This document shows, in pieces, positions 14,208 to 33,228 of a stretch of 64,000 nucleotides of DNA; position 1 is the first letter of the stretch, and the number at the start of each line of letters is the position of its first letter. The DNA is from Thermoproteota archaeon (lineage in GTDB: Archaea; Thermoproteota; Thermoprotei; Gearchaeales; Gearchaeaceae). A program made the position numbers and the translations under genes. Where the stretch lies: the NCBI GenBank assembly GCA_041640715.1, contig JBEPZU010000004.1:1542-65541 (forward strand). The letters run 5' to 3'. A model generated the notes under the pieces. It was given only the letters and a program-made list of their open reading frames with translations, made no database searches and was not told where the DNA came from.

Positions 14208-14226
14208 GAAAACAAAGAAAATGGGT

Positions 14227-16241: not shown

Positions 16242-16396
16242 GAACTATTAACAAATAGAGATTCGGGTTAAAAATTTAGCAAAAACCGATAAATGCTTTC
16301 CTTGATTTTCCAATGCTATTCAGTCAATCCTAAAGAACTTTGATAATTTTTGGAATTTAAGCTAAGTTTTATTACTCCACCCAACTTATTAAGCTA

Positions 16397-18068: not shown

Positions 18069-18395
18069 AAGCCTAAATCCCCGATTGATGGATAACATGA
18101 ATACATAACCTAACAGTTTAACAGTATGTGGGCAAGAAAATAGAGAAAAATGGAAGATAAATTTTTCTTTATCTCTTAATAGTTCATAGAAAATCAAAAT
18201 TCATAACTAAAAAATGAATTATAATTCCGGTCGAATGAGTAAAAAGGTGAATAATAGAAAGTCCTTTGCATAATTAATGAGTAACCCTCTAAGAAGCAAA
18301 AGGTTTAAAAGAATTGATTAAAACTCCAGAAGAAAAACCGTCCGAAACACTTAAATATAGATAGATTTATATAGCCCCAAGAGATTCTTGGTAAG

Positions 18396-18728
18396 ATGGA
18401 TTCAATTTCATATTTTGATTTGTATCAGATTTATAAATTATTCAAAAAGAAAAGAATTTGGAATAAATTAGAAATATTAGATAAAGCATTTATTAAATCA
18501 TGTTTAATTCTTTCAAAAATTAAAAAGATTAAAAATAAAGAAATAATTAATATATTAAACAGAATAATGAATAAAATAAATAACTTCAAGAAAGAAAAGA
18601 TAGAAATGGCTATCAGCGTAGCAATAGAAGCAATGAAAGGAAATGCTGTGAAAACGTTTAAAAAATTGGCTGAATGGTACAAAGATGAAGCTTACCTGTT
18701 CTGGCTAGGCTTGGCTCTAAGCAGGTAA
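18396..18728 (+). CDS. hypothetical Lys/Ile-rich small protein (may be a non-coding AT-rich artefact)
   Basis: 110-aa ORF of low complexity. Only ORF in this gap. Confidence 0.2.
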   Translation: MDSISYFDLYQIYKLFKKKRIWNKLEILDKAFIKSCLILSKIKKIKNKEIINILNRIMNKINNFKKEKIEMAISVAIEAMKGNAVKTFKKLAEWYKDEAYLFWLGLALSR

Positions 18729-18761: not shown

Positions 18762-20261
18762 ATGGCAGAAGTTCTACTTCATTTTGCTCTCCCATTTGCG
18801 TTTACTGCTCCATTGCTTGGATTTAAAAGAGGACTTTTGATAGGTTTGATAGCATTATTGCCAGATCTAGATGTGCTTTTCCAAATTCACAGATCGATCA
18901 CACATTCTATGATTTTTCTACTCGCTTTAGTTTTGCCGATTGTGATATTAGTGGCTTATAAATCACCTAAGCTCAAAGTTACTGCAATAGCAGCTATTCT
19001 AAGCCTTCTAAGTCATCCAGTACTGGATATGTTGCAGACATATACACCGATATTCTATCCTGTTTTGAAGGATTCACTATTCATTGAAGTGAATGCTGGA
19101 ATTTTAATAAACAGTTCAAACCCACATCCAATCTTAAATCCATATCTAAACGTCGAAGTTAAGTGGATGGCTACCGAGTTTAAGCCTTTTAAAAGCCTTG
19201 ATGGACCTTTATTTACAAGCCAAAATCTACCCATCTCAATAGCTTTGATCTTAATGCCTATCGTTTACAGATTTGCCTCGATGAAACATATCAAAAAGAA
19301 CCAATTGAGCAAACCAAAGGATTTGTTGGATCAAACTATACTGCTTGTGCAAGATCCTATTCCACAAAACCCAGCCATTTCAAAGGAGGAAATCACCGTA
19401 GTGATACCAGTTTTAAATGAAGCTGAAGGTATAGGTAAAGTCATCGACGAGATAAAGCAAGAGGGTTACAATAACATATTGGTGATAGACGGTTATTCGA
19501 GCGATAATACTGCTGAAGTTGCGATGAGCAAAAACGTTAAGGTAATACGTCAACATGGAATAGGTAAAGGAGGCGCCATCAAAACAGCACTTGAGCATGT
19601 TAATACTCCATACATTCTCTTAATGGATGGCGATTATACATATGATCCAAAGGATATCAAGCATATGCTAGTTTATGCTAAAAAATATGATGAAGTGATA
19701 GGTTCAAGAGTACGTTCCAAAGCCATGAGTTTATTACATAGAATAGGCAATAGGATCATTAACTTGACATTCAACCTTTTAATGGGTACTAGCCTTAGCG
19801 ATGTATGTAGTGGAATGTATCTAGTAAGGACTGAAGCCTTGAAGGATCTCGAAATAAAAAGCAGAGATTTCAGTGTGGAAGTTGAAATAGCAGCTCATAT
19901 AAGTCATTCAGGTAAGATCACTGAAGTTCCTATAAATTATAGGAAAAGGATTGGGAAAAAGAAGCTCCAAAGCTTTCGAGATGGGCTCGTAATACTTCGC
20001 ACTATAATATGGTTGGCGATGAATTATAATCCTGTAATGCTCTTTGCTTCTTTAGCTTCCATCTTAGCTATTCCTGGCTTAATTATTACTCTAAGAGAAC
20101 TTTATTTAAGATATCTTTACGGAGCTGAAGCTTGGTCTTTTGGCATGGCATGGTTAGGGTTATTTCTACTCGTAATAGGATTGCAAGGAATTACAATCGC
20201 AATAATATCCTTGATGTTAAGGAGGATGGAAATTAGGATACTACGGAACCTTAAAAAATAA
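18762..20261 (+). CDS. fusion protein: N-terminal YdjM/DUF457-like membrane-bound metal-dependent hydrolase domain + dolichyl-phosphate-sugar-synthase-type GT2 domain + C-terminal TM helices
   Basis: 499 aa. His-rich membrane N-terminus (HFALPF, HRSITHSM, SHPVLD). GT2 core ITVVIPVLNE...VIDGYSSDNTAEVA...LMDGDYTYDP. Two C-terminal TM helices. Confidence 0.6.
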   Translation: MAEVLLHFALPFAFTAPLLGFKRGLLIGLIALLPDLDVLFQIHRSITHSMIFLLALVLPIVILVAYKSPKLKVTAIAAILSLLSHPVLDMLQTYTPIFYPVLKDSLFIEVNAGILINSSNPHPILNPYLNVEVKWMATEFKPFKSLDGPLFTSQNLPISIALILMPIVYRFASMKHIKKNQLSKPKDLLDQTILLVQDPIPQNPAISKEEITVVIPVLNEAEGIGKVIDEIKQEGYNNILVIDGYSSDNTAEVAMSKNVKVIRQHGIGKGGAIKTALEHVNTPYILLMDGDYTYDPKDIKHMLVYAKKYDEVIGSRVRSKAMSLLHRIGNRIINLTFNLLMGTSLSDVCSGMYLVRTEALKDLEIKSRDFSVEVEIAAHISHSGKITEVPINYRKRIGKKKLQSFRDGLVILRTIIWLAMNYNPVMLFASLASILAIPGLIITLRELYLRYLYGAEAWSFGMAWLGLFLLVIGLQGITIAIISLMLRRMEIRILRNLKK

Positions 20262-20264
20262 AAG

Positions 20265-21734
20265 TTGAGCTGGATTTTAAACGAAGAAGTTTTAGCAGTA
20301 ATATTAGTCATAGTGATAATTTCAGGCATAATTGCAACCATTCAAGTTTTCAACCCACAAAACAACATAGAAAGTTTCTCCGAGCTTGGACTATTAGGTA
20401 AAAGAGGTATGATAGGAGATTATCCTAGGCAAGTAGTAGCTGGTCAACCTTTTCTCTTATACATTTACATAGGTAACCATGAAGGTAAAACAGTCTATTA
20501 CAAAATCCTCGTCAAAACAGGAGATAAATCTTCCGTAATAAATGAAACCACTCCTTTAAACGCTGAACCAATAATGGAGTTTAGAGTTGTTCTTACTCAT
20601 AACTCATCCATAAAAATCCCAGTTAACATAACACTAGAGCAGCCAGCAACCAACTTAAGGCTCGTCTTCGAGATGTGGATCTATAACGAAACATCTGGGA
20701 ATTTCATATACTACAATCGATGGAATCAGCTCTGGCTCAATGTCACAGGTGGGTTGATGAGCACTGGTGAAAGTCAAAAGACAAAACAAACCTTAAGCGA
20801 AGATCTTGAAAAAAGAATAATTGAGGGTTATTTGTCTATAAGGAGAGCAGAAAGAGATGGAGGAAACGTCTCTGAGATGGTTAATCTGATTAACCAAGCT
20901 ATACAGCTCGCTTTCAAAGGAGATGAAGCCAATGCGAATGAACTTATAGATGAGATAATAGCCATGGAACCAATTGTTTCAAGGCTTGGATTGGAGACAT
21001 CAAGGATGAAACTTTACACCAACATAGCAATGTTAACAGCGATCTCATCTATAGGCATAACTAGCTTCATTTTCTTAAGACAAAGAATATGGATTTACTG
21101 GGCTAGAATTCATAAAGATTGGAAGATTATTTCGAAGAAAAACAACATGAAGCTTAGCAATTTAGAAAAAATCATCCTAAATGAAATCAAGAATAAAGAA
21201 ACTCGATTAGGAGAAATCGTATTCTCTCCTACAATGAAATACAAAGCGCATGAAATCGCAAAAACTATTTACAAATTAGCTAGAAAGGATGAAATTAAGC
21301 TAATCGATCCTAAACCACCATTGAATTTCTTAAGGTATATTCTATCGAGATATAACCTAGGTTTTGCGATAATTACTTCATTAGTAGCATTGGCTATACT
21401 TTCAGTTTACGGCTCAGATTCCTTTTCAGCTTTAACATCTTTGAGGATCATCTTAGGTTCGCTTTTAGTGCTTTTCATGCCAGGTTATTCTCTCATAGAA
21501 GCCCTATATCCCAAAGAAGAAGATCTTACACCCCTTGAGAGATTAGCTTTATCTATAGGTCTTAGCTTAGCGATCGTGCCCCTTATAGGCTTGGTGCTCA
21601 ATTATACTCCTTGGGGTATAAGGCTTGATCCCATTCTGGTTGCACTTTCAACGCTCACGTTGATTTTAATGTTCCTATCAAGTTATAGGAAATTTGAGGT
21701 TCTAAGGTTGAAGGTAAGCACTACAAATGTTTGA
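20265..21734 (+). CDS. membrane protein: N-terminal TM helix + sequon-rich extracellular domain + wHTH-like segment + C-terminal polytopic domain (DUF1616-like); paralogous to 62899..63501
   Basis: 489 aa. C-terminal block FMPGYSLIEALYPKEEDLTPLERLALSIGLSLAIVPLIGLVLNYTPWG aligns with the 62899 ORF. Confidence 0.5.
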   Translation: MSWILNEEVLAVILVIVIISGIIATIQVFNPQNNIESFSELGLLGKRGMIGDYPRQVVAGQPFLLYIYIGNHEGKTVYYKILVKTGDKSSVINETTPLNAEPIMEFRVVLTHNSSIKIPVNITLEQPATNLRLVFEMWIYNETSGNFIYYNRWNQLWLNVTGGLMSTGESQKTKQTLSEDLEKRIIEGYLSIRRAERDGGNVSEMVNLINQAIQLAFKGDEANANELIDEIIAMEPIVSRLGLETSRMKLYTNIAMLTAISSIGITSFIFLRQRIWIYWARIHKDWKIISKKNNMKLSNLEKIILNEIKNKETRLGEIVFSPTMKYKAHEIAKTIYKLARKDEIKLIDPKPPLNFLRYILSRYNLGFAIITSLVALAILSVYGSDSFSALTSLRIILGSLLVLFMPGYSLIEALYPKEEDLTPLERLALSIGLSLAIVPLIGLVLNYTPWGIRLDPILVALSTLTLILMFLSSYRKFEVLRLKVSTTNV

Positions 21735-22455
21735 TCGAAATTTAGTGTATGGTTTAAGTCTAGTCTCTTTCGGATCGATCTTAAGCATAGCTTCGTATTT
21801 TATCTTAGAAAACATACCCTTAACAGCTTTGGGAATAGGCTTGATTGTATTAGGCTCAGCGTGGGCAATGATACCACCATATCCTTTGCCTAAGGATACG
21901 ATCATAGAATTGATCAAATCATCATGCAGTAATATAGAAGCCTTGTTAGAAGCATTAGGGATATTCGAAAAGGCCATCTACATACCATCTAAAGAAGGAA
22001 GGGTCTTGGCCTACGTACCTATTAAGAAATCAGGAAATGTTAGTATTGATGAGATAAGCAATAACTTAAACAAAATGATTTTCAAAAGCAAAGAAAGTCT
22101 TGGAATAATTTTAGCCCCGCCTAAAGCTGGAATAGGAAATCCGCATCCAGTAGGAGAAATCGGTTCTGATCTAACCACATTACTTGAACATGCCCTCGTA
22201 GATTCTGAGATTGCTTCTTCAGTCAGCGCAGTACAGAGCGAAGAAATCGTAGTAGTGGAGATAAATAAGCCTAAAGGCGATGTAGATTACCGTAGATTTA
22301 GAATTGTCATGGGTTCATTGCCTTCATGCATAGCAGCCCAAGCTGTAGCGGCATTCTTCTCTAAACCTGTTCAAATAATCGAAGAAAGGAAAGAAGGGAA
22401 TAGCTTAATAGTCAACTTAAAGGTCTTGGATTGGAAAGACAGTACTTATATTTAA
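21727..22455 (+). CDS. hypothetical membrane-anchored protein
   Basis: 242 aa. Two N-terminal TM helices then a soluble domain. Start overlaps the upstream stop. Confidence 0.4.
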   Translation: MFDRNLVYGLSLVSFGSILSIASYFILENIPLTALGIGLIVLGSAWAMIPPYPLPKDTIIELIKSSCSNIEALLEALGIFEKAIYIPSKEGRVLAYVPIKKSGNVSIDEISNNLNKMIFKSKESLGIILAPPKAGIGNPHPVGEIGSDLTTLLEHALVDSEIASSVSAVQSEEIVVVEINKPKGDVDYRRFRIVMGSLPSCIAAQAVAAFFSKPVQIIEERKEGNSLIVNLKVLDWKDSTYI

Positions 22456-22676
22456 TTAGTCTAGCACTTCTCATGATGATCACCGTTTCAGCATTGGCAG
22501 CTCTGAACGAGAATAGATTGGATTTTTACCTGAGTATTTTCACGCTCATATATCTAGTTACCAACTTGACCTTCAGACCTAGAAAAAGGACGTTTGATTT
22601 CATTGCTTTGTTTTTATTACTTATATTCGTGTACATAACGATCACTAAGATCTTAGAAATCCTCATTTTAACTTGA
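22431..22676 (+). CDS. small hydrophobic protein
   Basis: 81 aa, three predicted TM segments. Overlaps both neighbours, compatible with operon coupling. Confidence 0.3.
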   Translation: MERQYLYLISLALLMMITVSALAALNENRLDFYLSIFTLIYLVTNLTFRPRKRTFDFIALFLLLIFVYITITKILEILILT

Positions 22677-24556
22677 AAAGAAAAACTTTAGTAAAGTCGT
22701 TTACAATAGTAGCCGCAATATCGATAGTGATACTCCTGCTTTTTTCATCGCTAATACAGCCGCCGATTCCATTTAGGGCTATACTTAGGCATGTTGACCC
22801 AAGCTCTGAAAACAAGCAGTTTCCGTTCTCACTTTTCTTGGTTTTTCAGATCAGTGAATTACTAAAAAGCTTGATAAATGGTAATTTTAGAGATGCATCT
22901 GAAAAATTGAAAAATTTGAAAAACATTAGCATACCAGAAGAATATCGTTTCATATTCAACAGGTTCAATGAGCTCTTAGAGGAAATTTCAAACCAGCTTA
23001 ACGCGACTAAGTACTTACTAGATCAAGCAGAAGAACTAATAATAAATGGTAAAAGCGAAGATGCTAGATCTTTACTGAACGAAGCGTCGCTTAAGCTAGC
23101 TTCTGCAAATATAACTTATATCGAACTCAGAGTAGCTTTTAATGAATTCGCTAAGACGTTTGGGCTACCTATTGATCGGCTTCAAAAACTCATAGATAGA
23201 TTAGGCGAGGTGATCAATGAGTATTATGATAGACTTCTCAGGTTGTTTAAAATGATCCAGGATCAAAGACTTCTTGAGGATACGTTCTTAAGCATCAACG
23301 TAACTCCCAAAACAATCTGGACTGGAGGAAATTTAGAAATTAGCGGTACGCTTTATACAAACAATACCTTTTTAGCGAATAAGACATTAGAAATACTCCT
23401 TGACGAAAGCCCGCTTACTAAAGTTTTAACTAATGAAAGAGGTGAGTTCAAAATTAAGGTTAAGATACCATATATTTACAAACCAAGCATTATTCTCAAA
23501 GCTAGGTACATTCCTACAGGATTTGACAGCGAGATTTACAAACCAACAGTTTCAAACAACGTGACGGTTAAACTCCTTTACATTCAACCAATCATAAAAG
23601 TTGAAACAATAGGCAAAGCGCTACCAGGTAAAACCTTCGTTTTGAATGGCTACGTAGAAACCAATAGGTCTTTACCATACACTAGCTTGCTAATCTCATG
23701 GACTGGAACCTCTTTGAATGCGACTCTTAATGAAGGAAAGTTCAGTATTGAGTTATATACACCTGCAAATATACCTGATGGAGAATACGAATTGAGGATC
23801 AAAGCACCTCCATTCGAAATCTTTGCGCCTGCTGAGATAACCCTTCTAGTTAGAGTAGAGAGAATACCTCTTAATTTTGAAATACAGCAGCCAGGCGTGA
23901 TCATTGCAGGTTTAGCTTCACAAATACAAATTAAACTCGTTGACGAAGAAAACGTAAACTTCACGGCTAGATTGAGCTTCATGGATCAAATCTATACTGT
24001 CAATGCAAGCACGCAAGCAAGCTTTAATTTAGTTGCTCCATTAACAGTTTTGAGCGGATATCATCACTATAAAATAACTATATTTCCAAGTTTACCTTGG
24101 TACAAAAGCTCAGAATTTGAAGGAAGCATACTAGTGATAAATCCGCTGACGATCTTGGTTCCTATTATAATATCCTCAGTCATGACCTTTGAGCTCCTCA
24201 AGAGAAAAAGAAAGAAGATCATTGAAGAACCTTACCAAGAACAAAAGGTATCAGAACAAGCGATTACAAGAGTGTATTCAGAAACCTCGAAGTTCAAGGA
24301 GTTAATCGATTTATATTGGCAAGCAGTAGCGATAGTAAGCGAGATTACCAGCATTGAAATGAAACCAAGTATGACCCTGAGAGAATATCTCGAATTTACG
24401 GGGCCTAAATTAAAAGAATTAAAAAAAGCCTTCGAAATTATTACGATAGCTACTGAGAAAGCTATTTATGCTCCTTTAGTTTTGAATGAAGAAATAGAAG
24501 CTACAATGAAAGCGTTTGAAGAGTTAAAAGTAATGTATGTCAAAGTTCAACTTTAA
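22673..24556 (+). CDS. surface-exposed membrane protein: N-terminal TM, coiled coil, Ig-like beta-rich repeats with many N-glycosylation sequons, TM, cytoplasmic DUF4129-like C-terminal domain
   Basis: 627 aa with no cysteine. At least 11 N-x-S/T sequons. TM helix then KRKRKK then a C-terminal domain containing MTLREYLEF (DUF4129-like). Confidence 0.5.
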   Translation: MKRKTLVKSFTIVAAISIVILLLFSSLIQPPIPFRAILRHVDPSSENKQFPFSLFLVFQISELLKSLINGNFRDASEKLKNLKNISIPEEYRFIFNRFNELLEEISNQLNATKYLLDQAEELIINGKSEDARSLLNEASLKLASANITYIELRVAFNEFAKTFGLPIDRLQKLIDRLGEVINEYYDRLLRLFKMIQDQRLLEDTFLSINVTPKTIWTGGNLEISGTLYTNNTFLANKTLEILLDESPLTKVLTNERGEFKIKVKIPYIYKPSIILKARYIPTGFDSEIYKPTVSNNVTVKLLYIQPIIKVETIGKALPGKTFVLNGYVETNRSLPYTSLLISWTGTSLNATLNEGKFSIELYTPANIPDGEYELRIKAPPFEIFAPAEITLLVRVERIPLNFEIQQPGVIIAGLASQIQIKLVDEENVNFTARLSFMDQIYTVNASTQASFNLVAPLTVLSGYHHYKITIFPSLPWYKSSEFEGSILVINPLTILVPIIISSVMTFELLKRKRKKIIEEPYQEQKVSEQAITRVYSETSKFKELIDLYWQAVAIVSEITSIEMKPSMTLREYLEFTGPKLKELKKAFEIITIATEKAIYAPLVLNEEIEATMKAFEELKVMYVKVQL

Positions 24557-25526
24557 TCCCATCCTATTCAGCGTTGCCCTAGCGATACTCTTCATTTTAA
24601 TAGCTATAGCTTTGCTGCCTGCCCATGAGGACTTCCTAATAGCAAATCCATATTGGAATGGCTTACAAACTTTTTCTAAGACAGTTGATCTCAATGTCAT
24701 AAACATAGAGCATGAAATGATCATTCCAGAAAAAACGGTTCTCTTCTTGATAGGCCCTTCCTTAAATCTAACGCAAAATCAAATCGAAATGTTGAGAGAA
24801 TATGTAATGAATGGGGGAGAACTCGTCCTAATGGATGAGACTGGTATTATAAATGCGCTCCTTTCAAATTTAGGGCTTGGTATTAGCGTCGACGGAAATT
24901 TAATGCTAGATGCTTTATTTTATCATAGGAGCTGGAAGTTGCCTAGGATAATCAACATAAAGGAAGATGAGCTTACAGCAGGGGTTGAAAACATCGTACT
25001 CGACCTCCCTTCTGTACTTAGAGTTAAGGATCCAAACGTTAAAATCATAGCTTATTCTTCAAGCTTTAGTTTCCTCGATATAAACAAGGACTTTAAACCT
25101 TCAGATGATGAACCGCTTGGACCTTTTCCTGTAGCGGCTAAAATAAGCTATGGTAAAGGAGTCATATTGATCTTCTCAGATTCCAGCATTTTTTTGAACA
25201 GCATAATTAATCTAGGAGATAATCCCAGATTATTGCAAAACTTAGTTAAAGATAGATCTGTCTATTTAGATATTAGCACTTGGAAATTAACACCTAGAGA
25301 GAGCTATAGAAATGCTTTACTGAGCTTCTATGCGATCCTATCAGCACCAGAATTTAAGTATAGCTTGGCTTTAGCAATACTAGCAATCATCTATGCGACG
25401 AAACCGAGAAGAAAAACAAAGATTGAAATAGATGAGATTGAAGAAACCCTTAAAAAGCATCCTGACTGGGATGGGCGTATACTTAAATTACTTAAAGAGC
25501 TAAGAGATAGATATACAGCAAAATGA
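24537..25526 (+). CDS. DUF4350-like membrane protein (GldG-like domain flanked by TM helices)
   Basis: 329 aa. N- and C-terminal TM helices. Central VLFLIGP...GGELVLMDE pattern typical of DUF4350. Confidence 0.5.
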   Translation: MSKFNFNPILFSVALAILFILIAIALLPAHEDFLIANPYWNGLQTFSKTVDLNVINIEHEMIIPEKTVLFLIGPSLNLTQNQIEMLREYVMNGGELVLMDETGIINALLSNLGLGISVDGNLMLDALFYHRSWKLPRIINIKEDELTAGVENIVLDLPSVLRVKDPNVKIIAYSSSFSFLDINKDFKPSDDEPLGPFPVAAKISYGKGVILIFSDSSIFLNSIINLGDNPRLLQNLVKDRSVYLDISTWKLTPRESYRNALLSFYAILSAPEFKYSLALAILAIIYATKPRRKTKIEIDEIEETLKKHPDWDGRILKLLKELRDRYTAK

Positions 25527-26437
25527 TAGAAGAAATAATTTCAGAAATAGAACGCTTCGTAGTAGGCAAAAAGGATGTTATAAAAATGATTCTTGTAGCC
25601 CTTCTAAGCGAAGGACATATACTACTCGAAGGTCCTCCTGGGGTAGCTAAAACGCTGATAGCAAAGACCTCCGCTAAAACACTAGGATTAAGCTTTTCGA
25701 GAATCCAAATGACCCCAGATACTTTGCCAGCAGATATACTAGGAGCTGCGATCTACGATGTAAAGACAGGAGAATTCAAAGTTAAAAAAGGCCCGATCTT
25801 TGCTAATGTTTTATTGGTAGATGAGCTTAACAGAGCTCCTCCAAAGACACAATCAGCCTTCCTTGAGGCAATGCAAGAAAGACAAGTAACAATAGAAGGC
25901 ACGAGTTATCCTCTTGAAAGGCCATTTTTGGTGATTGCCACGCAAATACCTTATGGCTCTCCTGGAACATATCCTCTCACAGAAGTTCAAATAGATAGAT
26001 TTGCCTACAAAATCAAGGTTAGGTTTGCTTCTCCTGAAGAGGAGATGAAGATATTAGAGAAAATAGACTCCATCGAGAGCGGAGAAGTAAGACAAGTTGC
26101 TGATAGAAATAAAATACTACAAGCGATGGAAGAGGTTAGAAAGATATACGTCTCAGAAGCCGTTAGAAAATATATCGTAGATATGATCTTTAAGCTAAGG
26201 AATAATCACGCTTTAATCGAAGGACCTAGCGCAAGAGGAACCATATGGCTAATGAAAGCTAGCAGAGCATATGCGTTCCTAAACAAGAGGAACTATGTAA
26301 TACCAGATGATGTAAAAGCGGTTGCACCCCATGTACTTAGACATAGAATACAATTAAGGAAAGAAATGCTCGAAGAAATCAACGAGGAACAAATAATCGA
26401 AGAACTACTATTAGCTACGCCTGTACCTAAAGGATAA
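25523..26437 (+). CDS. MoxR-family AAA+ ATPase
   Basis: 304 aa. Walker A GPPGVAKT, Walker B LLVDELNRA, sensor and VWA-interacting regions typical of MoxR (AAA_3). Confidence 0.85.
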   Translation: MIEEIISEIERFVVGKKDVIKMILVALLSEGHILLEGPPGVAKTLIAKTSAKTLGLSFSRIQMTPDTLPADILGAAIYDVKTGEFKVKKGPIFANVLLVDELNRAPPKTQSAFLEAMQERQVTIEGTSYPLERPFLVIATQIPYGSPGTYPLTEVQIDRFAYKIKVRFASPEEEMKILEKIDSIESGEVRQVADRNKILQAMEEVRKIYVSEAVRKYIVDMIFKLRNNHALIEGPSARGTIWLMKASRAYAFLNKRNYVIPDDVKAVAPHVLRHRIQLRKEMLEEINEEQIIEELLLATPVPKG

Positions 26438-26439
26438 TC

Positions 26440-27723
26440 TTGAAACTAGAAGTTACAGAAAAAGGGAGGAAATTAGCGTTATCGATAATTGCACTTACAT
26501 TACTTTACGTACTTTTCCTCGACATTTTACTGCTTTTGGCAGCTTCAATCATAGCATCCATAATGTTCTATTCTTTTTCCGTAGCATTATTGAGGAATAG
26601 AAATCTTAAAAAACACTCAAAAATTGAACCAGGATGCATCGAGCTAAAGCTCGTCGCCGGTACGACTCAAAGCATGAAAATGAAAATCGAAAATAAAAAG
26701 CCTTTATCGATTCGAGTTAAGCCTACTTTGAATTTCTGCAAGATCATTCCTGAGCTTTATAAGACCAATGAAGAGCTGAAGATAGAGATTTCACCAATGC
26801 TTGCAGGAAATTACGATTCTAAATGGCTTGAAGTCGAAATCCTTTCTCCTTTAAATATCTTTGTATTGAAATCAACACTTCCATTTAACATAAAGCTTAC
26901 TGTTTTACCTAGGGTTGTCCCTGTAGCAATCAAAGCTTTAGAGCTTTTAGCAACATCAGGCACACGAATCTACGAAATACCGGTTCAAACTGTAGGGATT
27001 GGGACTGAATATTTCGAAACAAGGGAATACATTCCAGGAGATGATCCAAAAAGGGTTGATTGGAAAGCAACAGCTAGGTTACAAAAGCTAATGATAAAGA
27101 AATTTCATAAAGAAATAGGCTGGTTAATAAACTTAATATACGATGAAAAAGTAGCAGGACCTTTATCTAGAGACGAAGCCGCAACGTTGTTCTTGAAAAT
27201 AGCTCTATCACTTACTTCGATGGAAATACCATATGATCTGAGCTTTATTGGAGTTAATAACGAAATTAGATCAATCAAGTTCAAAGATCAAAGAACTGCC
27301 CTTTTAGCAGCTATAAAGCATGCACTCGATGCAGTAAATGTAGATTACGGAGTGCTATATGAATTGGTCGAAGCCCAGTCAACAAAAGAAGCTTTAAAAT
27401 TATTGAAAATGATAGATAAAGAAATCATCGTAAAGAAAACACAAAAGTTCGACGAAGAAAGCAATGCTATCGTTATTACTTGTTTGATAGGAGACATTAG
27501 CTGGTTAATGGACCTTCATGAAACTCTTAAATTAAACGGGAGAACATTAATGATAAACGTTCCTTCAAAAACATGGTTGGATAGTCCAAATTTGGAGGAA
27601 ACTTATATAAATTACGAAAAACAACTCAAAATCCTAGCAATGCTGAAAAGAAGAGGGATTGAGGTTAGGATCGGCAAAGATTTAGATTCAAATATCCAGG
27701 AGCTCAAGGCTTATATCGCTTAG
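26440..27723 (+). CDS. DUF58 protein (vWA-like, MoxR partner)
   Basis: 427 aa. N-terminal TM helices. DUF58 signature EYIPGDDPKRVDWKATAR. Confidence 0.7.
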   Translation: MKLEVTEKGRKLALSIIALTLLYVLFLDILLLLAASIIASIMFYSFSVALLRNRNLKKHSKIEPGCIELKLVAGTTQSMKMKIENKKPLSIRVKPTLNFCKIIPELYKTNEELKIEISPMLAGNYDSKWLEVEILSPLNIFVLKSTLPFNIKLTVLPRVVPVAIKALELLATSGTRIYEIPVQTVGIGTEYFETREYIPGDDPKRVDWKATARLQKLMIKKFHKEIGWLINLIYDEKVAGPLSRDEAATLFLKIALSLTSMEIPYDLSFIGVNNEIRSIKFKDQRTALLAAIKHALDAVNVDYGVLYELVEAQSTKEALKLLKMIDKEIIVKKTQKFDEESNAIVITCLIGDISWLMDLHETLKLNGRTLMINVPSKTWLDSPNLEETYINYEKQLKILAMLKRRGIEVRIGKDLDSNIQELKAYIA

Positions 27724-27846
27724 TCTTTCAAAGATTTGGCATAATATTATGCTCGATGAAACTGTTTTTTCATGGTGTCTAGTAGGAACTTGCGGATGAA
27801 GTTGAAGTAGCTTAATGACTTTAGGAACTAGTTAATAGAGCGAAAA

Positions 27847-28950
27847 TTGCTTTTAGAAACGCTTGCATTGGCATTAGGCATTATTCACTTTGGAGTTCCA
27901 CTTGGCTATTATATTTACATGAAGAGATATTTGAGTAAACCTTGGAATGTGGAAATAGATGAAAGTTATAAGGCGTATGTAACGGTGATCCTTCCAACAT
28001 ATAATGAGGCTGGAATAATTTGGAAAAAGCTTGACAACCTGTATCAGCAAGACTATCCTAAGGAGCTTTTTGAAGTAATAGTTATAGATGGAGCGAGCAG
28101 TGACGGTACGGCTGAAATTGTTAAGAAGTGGTCTTCTGAACATGAGGATATCAGTCTTAAATTAATCGAAGAGTCTGAAAGAAAGGGAAAAGCTCATGCA
28201 CTAAATCATGCATTAAAGCACTCTAAAGGTGAAGTCATAGTTATTGCGGATGCTGATGCATTTTGGCCTAAGAACGCATTACTAGAAGCCATTAAGTGGT
28301 TTTCAGACCCGAAGGTTGGTGCAGTATCATGCCTAAAGAATCCTACAAGCGCTGGCCCTGTAAGTATTGAGGAAGGATATAGGCAGTACTATAATGCCTT
28401 GAGAGTGGCTGAGAGCAAGGTTTATGCAACTCCGATATTCCATGGGGAATTGGCCGCATTTAGAAAAAGTCTCTTAGAAAAGTTAAACGGCTTTCCTGTA
28501 GATATCGGTGCAGACGACAGTCATACTGCTACAAGAATAGCCTTAATGGGCTATAGAGCAATAACTCCTGAAAATCTAGTAGTTGAAGAAATAGTCCCAA
28601 GCAGAGATTATTCTTGGTGGAGAGTAAGGCGGGCTCAGCATCTGATACAGCACTTCGTTAAGGCACTTAAAATAAAAGGTCAGAAGCCTAAAGAGTTCAA
28701 GAAAATCCTCGCCGTGGAATCGTTTTTGCACATAATAAATCCATTCTTGTTGCTAGCATCCACGATTGCATTAACAACAAGTATAGTAGTTACTCATTCA
28801 TTTCTCGCCTTAGGCATCTTAGCATTAGGAGCAGCATTGTTGTATATGAAGCGATATAGAACGTGGATTGTTCAACAATTCTACCTCCTTACAGCGACTT
28901 TAAGAAACCTGAGGAGTAGGGAAATAGTTTGGAGTAAACAGATTAAATGA
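27847..28950 (+). CDS. membrane-anchored glycosyltransferase family 2
   Basis: 367 aa. VTVILPTYNE...VIVIDGASSDGT...ADADA. C-terminal TM helices. Confidence 0.75.
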   Translation: MLLETLALALGIIHFGVPLGYYIYMKRYLSKPWNVEIDESYKAYVTVILPTYNEAGIIWKKLDNLYQQDYPKELFEVIVIDGASSDGTAEIVKKWSSEHEDISLKLIEESERKGKAHALNHALKHSKGEVIVIADADAFWPKNALLEAIKWFSDPKVGAVSCLKNPTSAGPVSIEEGYRQYYNALRVAESKVYATPIFHGELAAFRKSLLEKLNGFPVDIGADDSHTATRIALMGYRAITPENLVVEEIVPSRDYSWWRVRRAQHLIQHFVKALKIKGQKPKEFKKILAVESFLHIINPFLLLASTIALTTSIVVTHSFLALGILALGAALLYMKRYRTWIVQQFYLLTATLRNLRSREIVWSKQIK

Positions 28951-30264: not shown

Positions 30265-32073
30265 ATGATAACTTTCTCCACAGCATTGATAGTATTTACA
30301 CCAATTCTCATAATCGTTTATTTATTAATGTTATTGGTAGCCGACAAATATGGAAGGATACATGAGGAGAAAAATACAACAGATTCTAAGGCATTCAAGG
30401 TCTTACAAGTCTTTGCGATAATTTTACCAGCTATAGGACTTTGCCTAACATTACTAACGAACTTTAGGGAAACTATTCCGTATTACGCTATACTCATGTT
30501 TACTTTTATTATAAATATAATATCTATACTTAAGTATCCCTCGAAGACTATTCTATCGTCCTTCATATTATTGCACTTCATGTTGATGTCTGGTAAACTA
30601 CCCGAAACTATGATCTCTATAGGTGAGGGACAACAAATGGATAGAGCTTTAGCTCTAAACAATCGTTGGGAATTTCAGTGGGCTCATAATCCGAGCTATA
30701 ACCCAATTCCCACCATAGCAACAATATCTGTCATACTTTCAGAAATTGTGGCGCTGAAGTGGTACAGCAGTTTGCTACAACTTTTAGTATTTATAGCTTG
30801 GGCTTTAGCATATGATTTAGCCATTTACCTACTAACTTTAAAATTAAGTGGAGATGAAAGAACAGCACTATTAGCCGTACCCCTTATCGCTATAACGCCC
30901 GAGACAGCAATCCATCAACATCCATACCAATGGAGCGGAAATATGCTTGTCTTACTGGCAACAATTATGCTAATATATCTTCTCCACAAACGCTCATCTA
31001 GCTTACCTATTACGATAACGCTACTCTTTATCGGTGCCATTTTAGCACATGCTACAGGCATAATTTATTTAGCGATACTCATAGCGATATATTTAGTCAA
31101 TGTGTTAATCAGAAATCTTAATAAAACGTTAGTTAAAGAGAAGCCACCATTTACATTTCATAAACCTATGAAGATCTTAATCCTATTTTTACTTCTAATA
31201 TTCTTTGTAAGAGCCTTATACACATCCGATTATGCAGATTACGTGTTGCCCAACTTTGCAAATCTTTACCGAGGCTTGATAGATTTATTAAGAGAGGCTT
31301 TTATGCCTGAGACTGTTACCGGCGAAGCTCATCACATTCCGCTCTACGAACGAGCCAGCGTATCTTCTATCCAAGCTTATGTATGGAGCTTCGTGATTTC
31401 CCTATCAACAGCATATATTATACATTCGCTGATTAAAAGAAGCCTAAGAATGCTAACACTAGCATTGTATGTTTGCTCAATTTTACTACTCTCGATATCG
31501 TTCTTAGGATATAGTATTGCCAAAATAACAAGCTTTTACCCATTAAATAGGACCGTTTATACATTCATACCGTTATTGGTCCCTATGGCAGCAATAGTCC
31601 TAGCAAGAACCATCAAAGCTGGTCCTAGAAAGCTTTGGGGAATAGTTGCTTTATCTACGATCTTATTTTTATTGACAGCGCCAATAGCTGCGCAGGATCC
31701 AAACATATCCCCAATAAGCTACGCAGAAATTAGAGAAGCCCCACCTATTACCATCGGACCTACTGAAATGGCAAAAGCATCTATAATTGCGAATTTAGTA
31801 GACAACTCTTATGTAAATTTGGGAAATAAAATCATATACATATATTCATCAGAAACCCATATAGAGAAAATAGTTTATACAGGTAGAGGAGGGGTAATTG
31901 AATACACATTTACAAATCCTTTACTTAAAGCCACAGAAACTTATACGTTTATAAACAGTTTGCCTCAATTAAAGATAACAGCCTTACGAGAGCCAAGTAG
32001 TAATGCGACTTCGCTAATTAAAATCCTAGATTTTGGAAAAGAGTCTATAATGTTAAGTTATGGTCAAGGTTGA
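30265..32073 (+). CDS. polytopic membrane protein with C-terminal extracytoplasmic domain; candidate Wzy-like oligosaccharide polymerase or GT-C enzyme
   Basis: 602 aa. More than 10 predicted TM helices. No WWDYG motif, so not AglB. Confidence 0.4.
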   Translation: MITFSTALIVFTPILIIVYLLMLLVADKYGRIHEEKNTTDSKAFKVLQVFAIILPAIGLCLTLLTNFRETIPYYAILMFTFIINIISILKYPSKTILSSFILLHFMLMSGKLPETMISIGEGQQMDRALALNNRWEFQWAHNPSYNPIPTIATISVILSEIVALKWYSSLLQLLVFIAWALAYDLAIYLLTLKLSGDERTALLAVPLIAITPETAIHQHPYQWSGNMLVLLATIMLIYLLHKRSSSLPITITLLFIGAILAHATGIIYLAILIAIYLVNVLIRNLNKTLVKEKPPFTFHKPMKILILFLLLIFFVRALYTSDYADYVLPNFANLYRGLIDLLREAFMPETVTGEAHHIPLYERASVSSIQAYVWSFVISLSTAYIIHSLIKRSLRMLTLALYVCSILLLSISFLGYSIAKITSFYPLNRTVYTFIPLLVPMAAIVLARTIKAGPRKLWGIVALSTILFLLTAPIAAQDPNISPISYAEIREAPPITIGPTEMAKASIIANLVDNSYVNLGNKIIYIYSSETHIEKIVYTGRGGVIEYTFTNPLLKATETYTFINSLPQLKITALREPSSNATSLIKILDFGKESIMLSYGQG

Positions 32074-32085
32074 TCGCTGAACACT

Positions 32086-33228
32086 ATGGTTAAAGTACTC
32101 GCAATCTCAAATCAAGACTTAAGGCACCCCTTCCATGGCAGCGCAAGACTTCAGCTTAGCTTGCTAGGAGCTTTGGCTTTGACGAATTCAGAAGTATTAT
32201 ACGTTAACGTAGCATCAAATGGGTTTTCACAACAAAACATAAGAGTAACCAGTAGCTTTGGAAGAACATCATTTAAGCAAATAAACATTCCTGGCATGAC
32301 AACATCAAATTATGCAAAATATTTGAAGAGTTTAAACGTCTTGGAAGGTTTGTTAGATATCAAGCCTGAAGTATTGTTCTGCCTAAGTAGGCATACAATC
32401 ATTCTCTGTAAGATACTTTCAAAGAAGTTAGGAGTTCCTTTAATACTTTTACATGACGCACTGAGATACCTATATCTTCATCAACTACTTAGAAGCACTA
32501 AGACTAGAATTAAGGAGGTATTTTATTCCGTTCCGGCCTTAATTTCTTATGCTATAATAACATTGCTCAGTAGTGCATCCCTATCGGTATCTGAGGATTT
32601 TAAGCTATACTTTAATAAACTACTTCTTAAAAACAAGATCTATGAAATTAAACCCACCTTCATGTTACTAAACGATCACGACTGTAATTCTCAAGAGATG
32701 GAAGATCTTAGCACGTTACCTGAGGATCTATTTCTTTATAGTGGCCCTCTATGGATTTTAAAGTATATAGCTTCCAAAACACCTCGCTTAAACTATGTAG
32801 TGACAGGACCTGTCGCTTTTAACGTTAAAAACCAAATGCATAACAGGCTGAAGAATATACATCCACTTCATAATATATGCGATATTCAACTATGTGAACT
32901 TCATAAGAGAATACGAGCCGCAGTAATTCTTAGAGAGAGCATGACAGGTATTAGCATGACAGTGGTACAGGAGCTGTACTTCGGCAAGCCAATAATCGCC
33001 AATTCAATAGCTATATCAGGAATAAGAGGGCTCAAAGATGTTAGAGGAATAAGCGTTGTTGATAATATTCCTAAACTATTAACCCTCCTAAATCATGCAC
33101 CAGAAGAAGATGAGGAACTGTTTAAAGAGAAAAGGCTTAATGCCTTAGAATTTTTTGAGAAAAATTTATCGCCTCCTATCTGTGGCAATCTTATTCGTGA
33201 AATTATAACCCATGTACTGGAAAGTTAA
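32086..33228 (+). CDS. divergent GT-B-fold glycosyltransferase-like protein
   Basis: 380 aa. C-terminal ELYFGKPIIANSIA resembles the GT4 donor-binding motif. Otherwise divergent. Confidence 0.35.
   Translation: MVKVLAISNQDLRHPFHGSARLQLSLLGALALTNSEVLYVNVASNGFSQQNIRVTSSFGRTSFKQINIPGMTTSNYAKYLKSLNVLEGLLDIKPEVLFCLSRHTIILCKILSKKLGVPLILLHDALRYLYLHQLLRSTKTRIKEVFYSVPALISYAIITLLSSASLSVSEDFKLYFNKLLLKNKIYEIKPTFMLLNDHDCNSQEMEDLSTLPEDLFLYSGPLWILKYIASKTPRLNYVVTGPVAFNVKNQMHNRLKNIHPLHNICDIQLCELHKRIRAAVILRESMTGISMTVVQELYFGKPIIANSIAISGIRGLKDVRGISVVDNIPKLLTLLNHAPEEDEELFKEKRLNALEFFEKNLSPPICGNLIREIITHVLES

What the first reader, a model, noticed from the sequence alone, without database searches (positions are those of the whole stretch)
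22673..27723. Archaeal MoxR-DUF58-DUF4350-DUF4129 envelope module whose transglutaminase slot is filled by a cysteine-free, hyper-sequon Ig-like surface protein
Four translationally coupled genes (plus two small membrane ORFs upstream) encode the following. First, a 627-aa protein built as TM, coiled coil, beta-rich Ig-like repeats with at least 11 N-x-S/T sequons, TM, KRKRKK, and a cytoplasmic DUF4129-like tail (MTLREYLEF). Second, a DUF4350 membrane protein. Third, a MoxR AAA+ ATPase. Fourth, a DUF58 protein. The same gene set (yeaC/yeaD/yebA-like) is conserved but functionally undefined in bacteria, where the first protein normally carries a transglutaminase core. Here there is no Cys-His-Asp core at all; the protein has zero cysteines. 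Instead there is an extracellular glycoprotein domain. The module sits inside a 50-kb glycosylation island. This suggests an uncharacterised MoxR-chaperoned system acting on a glycosylated surface component, for example S-layer or pilus anchoring or quality control.
Basis: partly seen in the sequence, partly recalled or inferred. Interest (0 to 1): 0.7.

Follow-up and report, generated by a model that had tools for sequence, protein, structure and literature searches.

The report
Known archaeal MoxR envelope gene module
The four genes are real, but they are part of a conserved seven-gene membrane module that was predicted from genome comparisons in 2015 and has never been tested experimentally, so this is another copy of a known puzzle and not a new system.

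Summary
ORFs 22673-24556, 24537-25526, 25523-26437 and 26440-27723 encode a 627-aa TM/helical-bundle/three-beta-sandwich/TM/DUF4129-tail protein, a DUF4350 protein, a MoxR ATPase and a DUF58 protein. The genes are tightly coupled and sit among glycosyltransferase genes.

The window's 627-aa protein misses the Pfam DUF4129 model, but all nine close orthologs hit it.

The unit is larger than reported. DUF1616, DUF7982 and an 81-aa 2-TM protein precede the four genes, in the same order in all 31 related loci wherever the contig reaches, apart from one degraded copy and a few DUF1616 rearrangements. These include relatives only 21-26% identical and a Dehalococcoidales bacterium.

This matches the [quoted passage not shown] of Makarova, Galperin and Koonin (2015), which I found no experimental work on.

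The "transglutaminase slot" idea is not supported. None of 71 sampled family members has a transglutaminase core, and YebA/TgpA operons are a different, DUF4350-less type.

The most likely mechanism is inferred, not shown. Cytoplasmic MoxR, with a membrane-tethered, MIDAS-less DUF58 adaptor, remodels or assembles a glycosylated envelope scaffold linked to surface-polymer synthesis.

Verdict: new member of a known, uncharacterised kind; moderate-low interest.

The parts
18762..20261 (+). YdjM + GT2 glycosyltransferase. It sits 3 nt upstream of the module and may belong to the same transcription unit.
   Evidence: Pfam Glycos_transf_2 79.8 bits and YdjM 46.6 bits. The same fusion sits directly upstream of DUF1616 in L005 and L006.
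20265..21734 (+). DUF1616 (COG4743) membrane protein. It has an N-terminal TM, a sequon-rich ectodomain, a TM, a cytoplasmic loop and a C-terminal multi-TM block.
   Evidence: Pfam DUF1616 178.9 bits. 7 sequons vs 3.8 expected here; 37 vs 13.3 across orthologs. First gene of the conserved block in most loci.
21727..22455 (+). DUF7982 partner. Two N-terminal TM helices plus an alpha/beta domain, tentatively of the V4R/H-NOX/Bet3/BcsD-like fold group.
22431..22676 (+). 81-aa two-TM protein (DUF8044-type in relatives). It was not called as a gene in the source assembly.
   Evidence: ORF. Conserved motif SALAALNE..RLD.Y.S...L.Y....FRPR.R in L002, L006 and L007. Its HMM finds it in 23 of 31 loci at the same position. 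PF26161 is annotated in L009 and L011. The exact sequence is absent from the protein collection.
22673..24556 (+). 627-aa bitopic stalk protein: the beta-sandwich/DUF4129 family member that is the focus of the finding.
22688..22747 (+). TM1 or signal anchor (residues 6-25). It is followed by a disordered linker carrying the near-invariant R-H-V-x-P (H40, P43).
   Evidence: Hydropathy, AF2 helix 6-25, H40 and P43 conserved in >=90% of 71 members.
22829..23263 (+). Extracellular helical domain (residues 53-197) containing a long three-helix bundle. It carries conserved sequons at N71, N110 and N146.
   Evidence: AF2 helices 89-124, 128-163 and 167-197 at pLDDT about 90. The N146 sequon is present in 41/71 members, N110 in 28/71 and N71 in 23/71.
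23282..24139 (+). Three tandem beta-sandwich domains (residues 204-302, 307-395, 402-489) of CarboxypepD_reg/MG/Ig-like type.
   Evidence: AF2. Foldseek hits only tandem MG, Ig and S-layer arrays. CarboxypepD_reg in 39/71 members.
24143..24214 (+). TM2 (residues 491-514), followed by KRKRKK.
   Evidence: A positive cluster after TM2 is seen in nearly all orthologs.
24287..24550 (+). Cytoplasmic three-helix DUF4129 tail (residues 539-626). E571, E595 and Y599 are invariant; T568 and R570 are nearly invariant (motif T-x-R-E-Y ... E...Y).
   Evidence: AF2 helices 539-559, 569-599 and 605-626. Invariants. DUF4129 hits in orthologs map here.
24537..25526 (+). DUF4350 / GldG-like protein (arCOG01314 type). 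It has an N-terminal TM or signal, an ectodomain, a C-terminal TM and a conserved cytoplasmic 'HPDWD' helix.
   Evidence: Pfam DUF4350 49.5 bits and ABC_transp_aux 39.9 bits. Ortholog alignment. Makarova 2015.
25523..26437 (+). MoxR-family AAA+ ATPase. It is soluble, with no TM and no sequons.
   Evidence: AAA_3 188 bits and AAA_lid_2 69 bits. Walker A GPPGVAKT and Walker B LLVDELN are visible in the translation. 1 sequon vs 5.0 expected across orthologs.
26440..27723 (+). DUF58 protein. It has an N-terminal TM hairpin followed by RNRNLKKHSK, a beta-rich region, the DUF58 signature and a vWA-like region without a MIDAS motif.
   Evidence: Pfam DUF58 33.9 bits. Hydropathy 9-52. No D-x-S-x-S in any of 7 orthologs. 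Sequons not enriched, 6 vs 8.7.

Best explanation
Identity (well supported): the locus is one copy of a conserved seven-gene membrane module. The order is DUF1616, DUF7982, a small 2-TM protein, the beta-sandwich/DUF4129 protein, DUF4350, MoxR, DUF58. This corresponds to the archaeal 'arCOG01314/arCOG02884-associated putative secretion or membrane-remodelling system' predicted by Makarova, Galperin and Koonin in 2015.

The 627-aa protein is the module's bitopic stalk subunit. It has an N-glycosylated ectodomain (a three-helix bundle plus three beta-sandwiches) and a cytoplasmic three-helix DUF4129 tail. It has no enzyme domain.

Mechanism (inferred, not shown):
1. A cytoplasmic MoxR hexamer is coupled to the membrane by the DUF58 adaptor. 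DUF58 is anchored by a TM hairpin, faces the cytoplasm and lacks a MIDAS metal site.
2. The pair uses ATP to assemble or conformationally switch a multi-subunit transmembrane complex. It probably acts on the conserved cytoplasmic elements: the DUF4129 tail, the HPDWD helix of DUF4350 and the DUF7982 domain.
3. The glycosylated ectodomains of the stalk protein, DUF4350 (GldG-like flavodoxin fold) and DUF1616 form an envelope-side scaffold.
4. That scaffold works with the surface-polymer biosynthesis genes that usually flank the module (glycosyltransferases, Wzx flippase, capsule genes). It most likely assembles, anchors or exports a cell-surface glycopolymer or glycoprotein layer.
For: Domain content.

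Synteny: the same order and strand appear in the window and 31 related loci wherever the contig reaches. This includes members 21-26% identical from Methanomethylicia, another Thermoproteota lineage, Korarchaeum and a Dehalococcoidales bacterium.

Family size: 401 clusters at 50% identity with E<=1e-30, nearly all full-length at 600-660 aa.

Literature match: Table 2 and section 3.2 of PMC5898192 list the DUF4350 protein, the MoxR ATPase, DUF58 (Ig+vWA), DUF1616/COG4743, membrane-anchored Ig-like proteins with 1-2 TMs, and small 2-3-TM proteins.

Topology: sequons are enriched in the stalk ectodomain (68 vs 32.3) and DUF1616 (37 vs 13.3), absent from the tail, depleted in MoxR (1 vs 5.0) and not enriched in DUF58 (6 vs 8.7). 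The bacterial copy shows no enrichment. Basic clusters follow TM2 of the stalk and the TM hairpin of DUF58.

The principle that a MoxR hexamer plus one vWA adaptor remodels a membrane protein from its cytoplasmic face comes from NorQ/NorD (PMC9976466).

Context: GT-like ORFs flank the module in 19 of 31 loci. Other loci have a Wzx flippase (L011, L012), poly-gamma-glutamate capsule genes (L010) or a MacB-like ABC transporter (L007). The window has 10 GTs, GlmS and a deacetylase around it.
Against: - No experiment exists for any member, so every mechanistic step is inference.
- The mapping of the 627-aa family onto arCOG03442/11910/13659 rests on architecture, TM count and co-occurrence, not on an arCOG profile match.
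- Makarova et al. predicted the vWA protein to be secreted or extracellular, which conflicts with my cytoplasmic assignment. The sequon argument for DUF58 alone is weak (P=0.24).
- The DUF58 clade lacks a MIDAS motif, so the canonical way a vWA adaptor grips its target does not apply.
- Linkage to glycan genes has no computed genomic background rate and is absent in some loci (L009).
- TM1 of the stalk may be a cleaved signal peptide rather than an anchor.
Confidence: 0.55

Rival explanations
1. Dedicated protein secretion system (the preferred reading of Makarova et al. 2015). The membrane and extracellular subunits form a conduit that exports large surface proteins, by analogy with the GldG-linked gliding/T9SS apparatus.
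For: The authors' argument is that most components are membrane or extracellular, and DUF4350 resembles GldG. The ABC_transp_aux and GldG hits are reproduced here. In L009 a 903-aa CarboxypepD_reg surface protein lies just upstream.
Against: There is no recognisable channel-forming or translocating ATPase component. MoxR proteins are remodellers, not translocases. No conserved candidate cargo gene accompanies the module across the 31 loci. The flanking genes are mostly glycan or polymer biosynthesis genes, not secreted-protein genes.
Confidence: 0.15
2. This is a derivative of the bacterial yeaC/yeaD/yebA (MoxR-DUF58-transglutaminase) system in which the transglutaminase was replaced by a glycoprotein domain, acting in S-layer or pilus anchoring or quality control.
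For: The two share MoxR, DUF58 and a C-terminal DUF4129 tail. YebA/TgpA operons are real and envelope-related.
Against: 0 of 71 family members have Transglut_core. No Cys column exceeds 17% occupancy. The bacterial Dehalococcoidales module has the same beta-sandwich protein. YebA/TgpA operons lack DUF4350, DUF1616 and DUF7982 and place the TGase last. No pilin or S-layer gene is conserved next to the module.
Confidence: 0.1
3. Surface sensor or signalling/conflict system. It would resemble the MoxR-vWA-beta-propeller ternary systems and the actinobacterial Esr pathway, with the Ig-like stalk sensing an external cue and MoxR/vWA relaying it inward.
For: The MoxR also matches Pfam bpMoxR at 45.9 bits. 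Esr uses an Ig-repeat surface filament together with MoxR and vWA. The stalk is bitopic, with a conserved cytoplasmic tail.
Against: There is no kinase, phosphatase, FHA, effector or beta-propeller gene in the window or in any of the 31 loci. PADLOC gives no hit beyond generic AAA+ similarity. The ectodomain is as conserved as the tail (22-30% vs 27% mean pairwise identity), so it is not diversifying.
Confidence: 0.07
4. Membrane-proximal ATP-dependent protein degradation system, as proposed by Zhang and Aravind 2012 for MoxR-vWA-YebA.
For: A MoxR plus vWA pair sits next to a membrane protein bearing the same C-terminal DUF4129 tail.
Against: No peptidase domain is present in any of the seven proteins. 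There is no conserved Cys. The conserved H40 and D285 lie in different extracellular segments.
Confidence: 0.03

Closest known systems
Putative secretion/membrane-remodelling system associated with arCOG01314 and arCOG02884 (Makarova, Galperin, Koonin 2015, PMC5898192; still listed as dark matter in PMC6393860, 2019)
   Same: Same parts list: the DUF4350 flavodoxin-like anchored protein, MoxR ATPase, DUF58 (Ig+vWA), DUF1616/COG4743, membrane-anchored Ig-like protein with 1-2 TMs, and small 2-3-TM proteins. All are in one predicted operon. It is catalogued in Desulfurococcales and some S. islandicus strains.
   Different: Nothing essential differs. The paper does not mention the DUF4129 tail, DUF7982 or DUF8044 by name, the Chloroflexota copies, or the link to glycan loci. 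It places the vWA protein outside the cell, whereas the sequence here argues for a cytoplasmic location.
MoxR-DUF58-transglutaminase operons: B. subtilis yeaC-yeaD-yebA, P. aeruginosa PA2875-PA2874-tgpA
   Same: MoxR plus DUF58 are co-transcribed with an envelope membrane protein that ends in a DUF4129-type tail. TgpA is essential and its catalytic domain is periplasmic.
   Different: TgpA/YebA has a polytopic N-terminus and a Cys-His-Asp transglutaminase core. The gene order is MoxR-DUF58-TGase, with no DUF4350, DUF1616 or DUF7982. Here there is no enzyme domain and no conserved Cys.
NorQ/NorD, CbbQ/CbbO and RavA/ViaA-type MoxR-vWA remodelling pairs
   Same: A MoxR hexamer plus one vWA-type adaptor acts on a target complex. 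For NorQD the target is a membrane protein, approached from the cytoplasmic side.
   Different: Those adaptors use an intact MIDAS (DxSxS-T-D) to grip an acidic residue. The DUF58 clade here has none. It is itself membrane-anchored, and its target is unknown.
Bifidobacterial PFNA cluster (pkb2-fn3-MoxR-duf58-tgm)
   Same: An Ig-like (FN3) surface or adhesion protein is encoded immediately upstream of MoxR and DUF58.
   Different: PFNA includes a Ser/Thr kinase and a transglutaminase and lacks DUF4350, DUF1616 and DUF7982. I did not test whether the FN3 protein is related to the 627-aa family.
GldG / ABC_transp_aux accessory proteins of gliding-motility ABC transporters
   Same: The DUF4350 protein matches ABC_transp_aux above its cut-off and GldG weakly. 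The extracytoplasmic flavodoxin-like domain is similar.
   Different: There are no GldA/GldF-type ABC transporter genes in the window. Only L007 has an adjacent ABC transporter, of MacB type.

Membership tests
arCOG01314/arCOG02884-associated putative secretion system (Makarova 2015) | Membrane-anchored DUF4350 (pfam14258) protein with an N-terminal signal or TM and a C-terminal TM | tested here: met
   DUF4350 49.5 bits vs 30.4 cut-off. Hydrophobic segments at 3-37 and 267-285.
arCOG01314/arCOG02884-associated putative secretion system (Makarova 2015) | Adjacent COG0714 MoxR/GvpN AAA+ ATPase and DUF58/COG1721 vWA-type protein in the same operon | tested here: met
   AAA_3 188 bits and DUF58 33.9 bits. 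Junctions of -4 and +2 nt.
arCOG01314/arCOG02884-associated putative secretion system (Makarova 2015) | [quoted passage not shown] | tested here: met
   DUF1616 178.9 bits at 20265-21734, first gene of the block.
arCOG01314/arCOG02884-associated putative secretion system (Makarova 2015) | Membrane-anchored Ig-like protein (arCOG03442/11910/13659) and small 2-3-TM proteins (arCOG03875/11497 etc.) | tested here: met
   AF2 shows three beta-sandwiches between two TMs. The 242-aa and 81-aa TM proteins are present.
arCOG01314/arCOG02884-associated putative secretion system (Makarova 2015) | Assignment of each protein to the named arCOGs by arCOG profiles | not testable with these tools
   No arCOG library is available, and the neighbourhood sheet of Supplementary Table 3 is truncated.
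DUF4129 (PF13559) | Match of the window protein itself to the Pfam model above the gathering score | tested here: not met
   No hit at E<=1.
DUF4129 (PF13559) | Full-length orthologs match the model in the region aligned to residues ~548-617 | tested here: met
   9/9 close orthologs (best 2.6e-8), 45/71 distant members (best 6e-10), and the bacterial L011 copy at 33.3 bits vs 24.8 cut-off over residues 560-629. The conserved T-x-R-E-Y...E...Y motif is present in the window protein.
YebA/TgpA-type MoxR-DUF58-transglutaminase operon | Transglutaminase core with a catalytic Cys-His-Asp triad | tested here: not met
   No Transglut_core hit in the window protein or in 71 relatives. Zero Cys in the window protein, and no Cys column above 17% occupancy. 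The fold search finds only beta-sandwich arrays.
YebA/TgpA-type MoxR-DUF58-transglutaminase operon | Three-gene order MoxR-DUF58-TGase with a polytopic (6-8 TM) membrane protein | tested here: not met
   The order here is stalk-DUF4350-MoxR-DUF58, and the stalk has 2 TMs. Compare.
MoxR AAA+ ATPases (AAA_3) | AAA_3 core with Walker A and B motifs, plus AAA_lid_2 | tested here: met
   188.3 and 69.2 bits. GPPGVAKT and LLVDELN motifs are present.
Canonical MIDAS-bearing vWA adaptors of MoxR (NorD, CbbO, ViaA) | D-x-S-x-S MIDAS motif after the first beta-strand of the vWA domain | tested here: not met
   The window has D-E-K-V-A. Orthologs have D-V-K-A-A, D-L-K-V-A and D-T-R-F-P, and the Asp is lost in L009 and L010.
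MoxR-vWA-beta-propeller ternary conflict systems / Esr pathway | Beta-propeller sensor and associated kinase, FHA or effector genes | tested here: not met
   None appear in the window or in related loci. PADLOC is negative.
Polysaccharide co-polymerases (Wzz/Wzc) | Sequence match to the Wzz family. The shared features are only the two-TM topology with a helical ectodomain and a cytoplasmic tail. | tested here: not met
   No Wzz-type Pfam or NCBIfam hit at E<=1. The resemblance is topological only.

The most novel reading that the evidence does not exclude
The module is an ATP-powered, inside-out envelope scaffold of monoderm archaea and Chloroflexota, playing the role that polysaccharide co-polymerase/export scaffolds (Wzz/Wzc-like) play in bacteria. 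Cytoplasmic MoxR/DUF58 would act on the DUF4129 tail and so control the conformation or oligomerisation of the glycosylated stalk, the GldG-like domain and DUF1616. This would govern assembly, length or anchoring of the surface glycopolymer made by the flanking GT, Wzx or capsule genes. DUF7982 would act as a lipid- or ligand-binding (V4R/Bet3/BcsD-like) coupling subunit.
Probability: 0.15. Interest if true: 0.75.

Novelty: new member of a known kind. Interest (0 to 1): 0.33.

Why it matters
This is one of the more widespread uncharacterised membrane gene modules in archaea. It was flagged in 2015 and again in 2019 as conserved 'dark matter', and its function is still unknown. Showing what it does would fill a gap in how archaea without a cell wall build and maintain their glycosylated envelope. 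It would also give a first function for the DUF4350, DUF1616, DUF4129, DUF7982 and DUF58 families.

The present locus does not open that question by itself. The analysis does add testable details:
- a fixed seven-gene core;
- a cytoplasmic, MIDAS-less DUF58;
- an invariant T-x-R-E-Y...E...Y tail motif;
- presence of the module in Chloroflexota bacteria;
- recurrent linkage to surface-polymer loci.

Tried and rejected
1. The hypothesis that a MIDAS metal in DUF58 grips the invariant Glu of the DUF4129 tail. Rejected: no ortholog has a DxSxS motif.
2. Indexed homolog search with the broad alignment A2, meant to reach distant members. It returned only the close family plus giant Ig-repeat proteins.
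3. Metagenome scan with A2. Repeated with A1.
4. AFDB fold libraries. Not available.
5. Structure prediction of DUF58 with locus-derived orthologs.
6. Contig look-up for the window protein itself. Not on record. The organism is known only as a Thermoproteota-type MAG, from its closest relative L001 at 84% identity.
7. Profile search of PDB sequences with the family. Nothing found.
8. The ~600-aa unannotated membrane proteins near the module in the window and in L008. Not related by BLASTP.
9. The local Pfam copy does not report DUF7982 or DUF8044 even for orthologs that carry them in precomputed tables, so those labels rest.
10. The H. volcanii DUF1616 gene HVO_2173 lies next to the cell-shape genes rdfA and sph3. 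This is suggestive, but I could not show that HVO_2173 sits in a MoxR module, so I did not use it.
11. Defence-system reading. PADLOC is negative.
12. The second and third cluster look-ups gave no further taxonomy.

Full report
1. OBSERVATION

The junctions between them are -20, -4 and +2 nt.

Pfam assigns the following:
- the 329-aa protein to DUF4350 (49.5 bits, cut-off 30.4) and ABC_transp_aux (39.9 bits);
- the 304-aa protein to AAA_3 (188 bits) with AAA_lid_2, i.e. MoxR;
- the 427-aa protein to DUF58 (33.9 bits, cut-off 23.4, signature region 193-226 only).

The 627-aa protein has no cysteine. It has 11 N-x-S/T sequons against 4.4 expected from its composition (Poisson P=0.006), and all lie between the two hydrophobic segments. 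It also carries KRKRKK after the second segment and MTLREYLEF in the tail.

The protein does not itself reach the Pfam DUF4129 model, even at E<=1. However, its nine full-length orthologs (42-49% identity, 624-631 aa) all do, with a best E-value of 2.6e-8. The 'DUF4129-like tail' is therefore correct at the family level.

AlphaFold2 with the ten-sequence alignment gives a confident model (mean pLDDT 81.9) with these parts:
- TM1 at residues 6-25;
- a disordered linker at 25-50;
- a helical domain whose core is three ~35-residue helices (89-197);
- three beta-sandwiches (204-302, 307-395, 402-489);
- TM2 at 491-514;
- a linker, then a three-helix tail at 539-626.

Foldseek against the PDB finds only generic tandem beta-sandwich arrays: complement and macroglobulin MG domains, Ig-like adhesins and S-layer proteins such as SbsC. 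It finds no enzyme fold.

The surrounding 7.4-42.3 kb holds GlmS, two sugar nucleotidyltransferases, seven GT2 and three GT4 genes and a polysaccharide deacetylase. The 'glycosylation island' context is therefore real over at least 35 kb.

2. THE UNIT IS LARGER THAN REPORTED

Three genes lie directly upstream on the same strand and overlap one another by 8, 25 and 4 nt:
- a DUF1616 protein (20265-21734; 178.9 bits);
- a 242-aa protein (21727-22455);
- an 81-aa two-TM protein (22431-22676).

Contigs encoding orthologs of the 627-aa protein show the same seven genes in the same order: DUF1616, DUF7982, small TM protein, DUF4129 protein, DUF4350, MoxR, DUF58 (L002-L006).

The exhaustive profile search shows that the 627-aa architecture is a large family, not an oddity. 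It found 1133 clusters (at 50% identity) at E<=1e-3 and 401 at E<=1e-30, nearly all full-length at 600-660 aa.

Members only 21-26% identical to the window protein sit in the same gene order:
- a Methanomethylicia MAG (L007);
- a second Thermoproteota lineage (L008);
- two unassigned lineages (L009, L010);
- a Korarchaeum MAG (L012);
- a bacterial Dehalococcoidales MAG (L011).

A metagenome scan added 19 loci. I built HMMs from the module's own orthologs and ran them on six-frame ORFs of all 31 loci. They recover the same order wherever the contig reaches. The exceptions are:
- one degraded copy (L029, which lacks DUF4350 and MoxR);
- DUF1616 displaced (L020/L021, L011) or absent (L009);
- L007, where the contig ends.

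3. THE SYSTEM IS ALREADY IN THE LITERATURE

Makarova, Galperin and Koonin (Biochimie 2015; PMC5898192, section 3.2, Fig. [quoted passage not shown] Its components are:
- the DUF4350 protein (signal peptide, C-terminal TM, GldG-like flavodoxin-fold ectodomain);
- a MoxR/GvpN ATPase;
- a DUF58 protein with Ig-like and vWA domains;
- DUF1616/COG4743 proteins;
- 'membrane anchored proteins with Ig-like domain' (arCOG03442/11910/13659; 1-2 TMs);
- small 2-3-TM membrane proteins.

Their phyletic table places these arCOGs together in Desulfurococcales and in several S. islandicus strains, but not in S. acidocaldarius or S. solfataricus.

In 2019 the DUF1616 arCOG was still listed among widespread uncharacterised archaeal families (PMC6393860). 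I found no experimental study. The only direct data are that H. volcanii HVO_2173 (DUF1616) is N-glycosylated by AglB (PMC8241124).

The mapping of the 627-aa family onto the arCOG03442-type slot is my inference from architecture and co-occurrence. No arCOG profiles were available.

4. THE 'TRANSGLUTAMINASE SLOT'

Transglutaminase proteins that end in DUF4129 do exist, and they are co-transcribed with MoxR and DUF58. Zhang and Aravind 2012 describe the YebA operon (PMC3495828) and Milani et al. 2012 describe PA2875-PA2874-tgpA (PMC3507681).

That is a three-gene operon with the TGase last, and it has no DUF4350, DUF1616 or DUF7982.

In the operon type found here the partner is always the beta-sandwich/DUF4129 protein. 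Among 71 diverse members, 45 hit DUF4129, 39 hit CarboxypepD_reg and none hits Transglut_core. The bacterial L011 copy has the same architecture.

No Cys column exceeds 17% occupancy. Cysteine-freeness is not a family trait either: 25 of 71 members lack Cys and the median is 2.

The shared DUF4129 tail is a genuine link between the two operon types. 'Replacement of a transglutaminase' is not shown.

5. ANATOMY AND TOPOLOGY

Sequon counts across the archaeal and unassigned modules separate the proteins as follows:

| Protein | Observed | Expected |
|---|---|---|
| Stalk (beta-sandwich/DUF4129) | 68 | 32.3 |
| DUF1616 | 37 | 13.3 |
| DUF4350 | 21 | 19.1 |
| DUF7982 | 8 | 8.4 |
| DUF58 | 6 | 8.7 |
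| MoxR | 1 | 5.0 |

Almost all of the stalk's sequons are in the ectodomain; only 3 fall in about 1000 tail residues. The bacterial stalk shows no enrichment (2 vs 2.0).

Three sequons in the helical bundle are conserved: N146 in 41/71 members, N110 in 28/71 and N71 in 23/71.

The DUF58 protein begins with about 40 hydrophobic residues split by an Asp, which suggests a TM hairpin. This is followed by RNRNLKKHSK. I therefore place its body in the cytoplasm, next to MoxR. This contradicts the 'secreted' assignment in the 2015 paper. The inference is moderately supported.

None of seven DUF58 orthologs has a DxSxS MIDAS motif.

The most conserved features of the stalk family are:
- G218, G225 and G257 in the first beta-sandwich;
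- H40 and P43 in the juxtamembrane linker;
- T568, R570, E571, E595 and Y599 in the tail.

Ectodomain and tail are about equally conserved: 22-30% against 27% mean pairwise identity.

DUF4350 ends in a conserved cytoplasmic helix with an HPDWD motif.

6. MECHANISM

What is shown:
- the gene content, the order and the deep conservation;
- the predicted structures;
- the compartment-specific sequon pattern.

What follows from established knowledge: a MoxR hexamer works through one vWA-type adaptor to remodel a target. For NorQ/NorD the target is a membrane protein, approached from its cytoplasmic face (PMC9976466).

What is inferred: MoxR and the membrane-tethered DUF58 act on the conserved cytoplasmic elements (the DUF4129 tail, the HPDWD helix and DUF7982). 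This would assemble or switch a transmembrane complex whose glycosylated ectodomains form an envelope-side scaffold.

The scaffold is plausibly tied to surface-polymer production, given what flanks the module:
- GT-like genes in 19 of 31 loci;
- a Wzx-type flippase in L011 and L012;
- poly-gamma-glutamate capsule genes in L010;
- an ABC transporter in L007.

I did not compute a background rate for this linkage.

7. RIVAL EXPLANATIONS

- A dedicated protein-secretion conduit (Makarova's preference) remains possible. It lacks a channel, a translocating ATPase and a conserved cargo.
- A sensing or conflict system is disfavoured. There are no kinase, FHA, effector or beta-propeller genes, PADLOC is negative and the ectodomain is not diversifying.
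- A proteolytic system is disfavoured because no peptidase is present.

8. VERDICT

The locus is a new member, from an uncultivated Thermoproteota-type genome, of a known but uncharacterised system. Its closest relative in the genome collection is 84% identical. The proteins are unnamed in the source record.

Interest is moderate-low. The system is an acknowledged open question, but this finding does not by itself make it more testable.

What this analysis adds:
- the seven-gene core definition;
- the DUF4129 tail motif;
- the cytoplasmic, MIDAS-less DUF58;
- the Chloroflexota copies;
- the recurrent link to surface-polymer loci.

Noticed in passing
window 22431-22676 (+): The 81-aa two-TM ORF is absent from the protein collection, so it was not called as a gene in the source assembly. 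It is nevertheless conserved at the same position in 23 of 31 related loci and is annotated DUF8044 in L009 and L011. It is probably a missed small gene.
   Followed up: yes
[not shown]
   Followed up: partly
window 22787-22801 (residues 39-43 of the 627-aa protein): The near-invariant R-H-V-x-P motif (H40 and P43 in >=90% of 71 diverse members) lies in a juxtamembrane extracellular linker that AlphaFold predicts as disordered. Its role is unexplained. It could be a partner-binding or processing site.
   Followed up: no
window 7411-9231, 16397-17461, 27847-28950, 34937-35566: GlmS, a GlmU-like nucleotidyltransferase with a left-handed beta-helix, a PgaC/IcaA-like membrane GT2 (TIGR03937 91.9 bits, below its cut-off) and a polysaccharide deacetylase together look like a pathway for a partly de-N-acetylated GlcNAc-type exopolysaccharide.
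   Followed up: no
L011 (Dehalococcoidales MAG GCA_016926695.1) 10001-16353; DUF7982 homologs P0235, P0243, P0250, P0253, P0286, P0290: The same module (DUF7982, DUF8044, DUF4129 protein, DUF4350, MoxR, DUF58-like) occurs in Chloroflexota bacteria, next to a Wzx-type flippase and a DUF1616 gene. This implies inter-domain transfer or great antiquity.
   Followed up: partly
L029 1-2904: This is a degraded copy of the module. DUF1616 is followed by a partial stalk gene fused or abutted to a partial DUF58 gene, and DUF4350 and MoxR are deleted.
   Followed up: no
L002/L003 1-2638: A tyrosine integrase and a Prim-Pol gene lie about 5 kb upstream of the module's first gene (DUF1616 at 7590) in one lineage. 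This may be an integrated element nearby. Nothing comparable was seen next to the module in the window.
   Followed up: no
L009 6552-10703: This is a 1383-aa variant of the stalk protein with extra Ig-like repeats. Other long variants of 752-967 aa also appear in the representative search. The ectodomain length is therefore variable, while the tail and the neighbouring genes stay the same.
   Followed up: partly
window 18366-18728 and 27764-27770: A TTTATATA box lies about 25 nt upstream of a small ~110-aa ORF (18396-18728) that precedes the YdjM-GT2 gene. An oligo-T run follows the DUF58 stop codon. These are plausible limits of the transcription unit.
   Followed up: no
window 30265-32073 and 32086-33228 (+): Two ORFs of 602 and 380 aa have no Pfam match and sit inside the glycosyltransferase cluster; the 602-aa one looks polytopic. 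They may be polymerase- or flippase-like components. The 602-aa protein is not related by BLASTP to the 605-aa protein downstream of the module in L008.
   Followed up: partly
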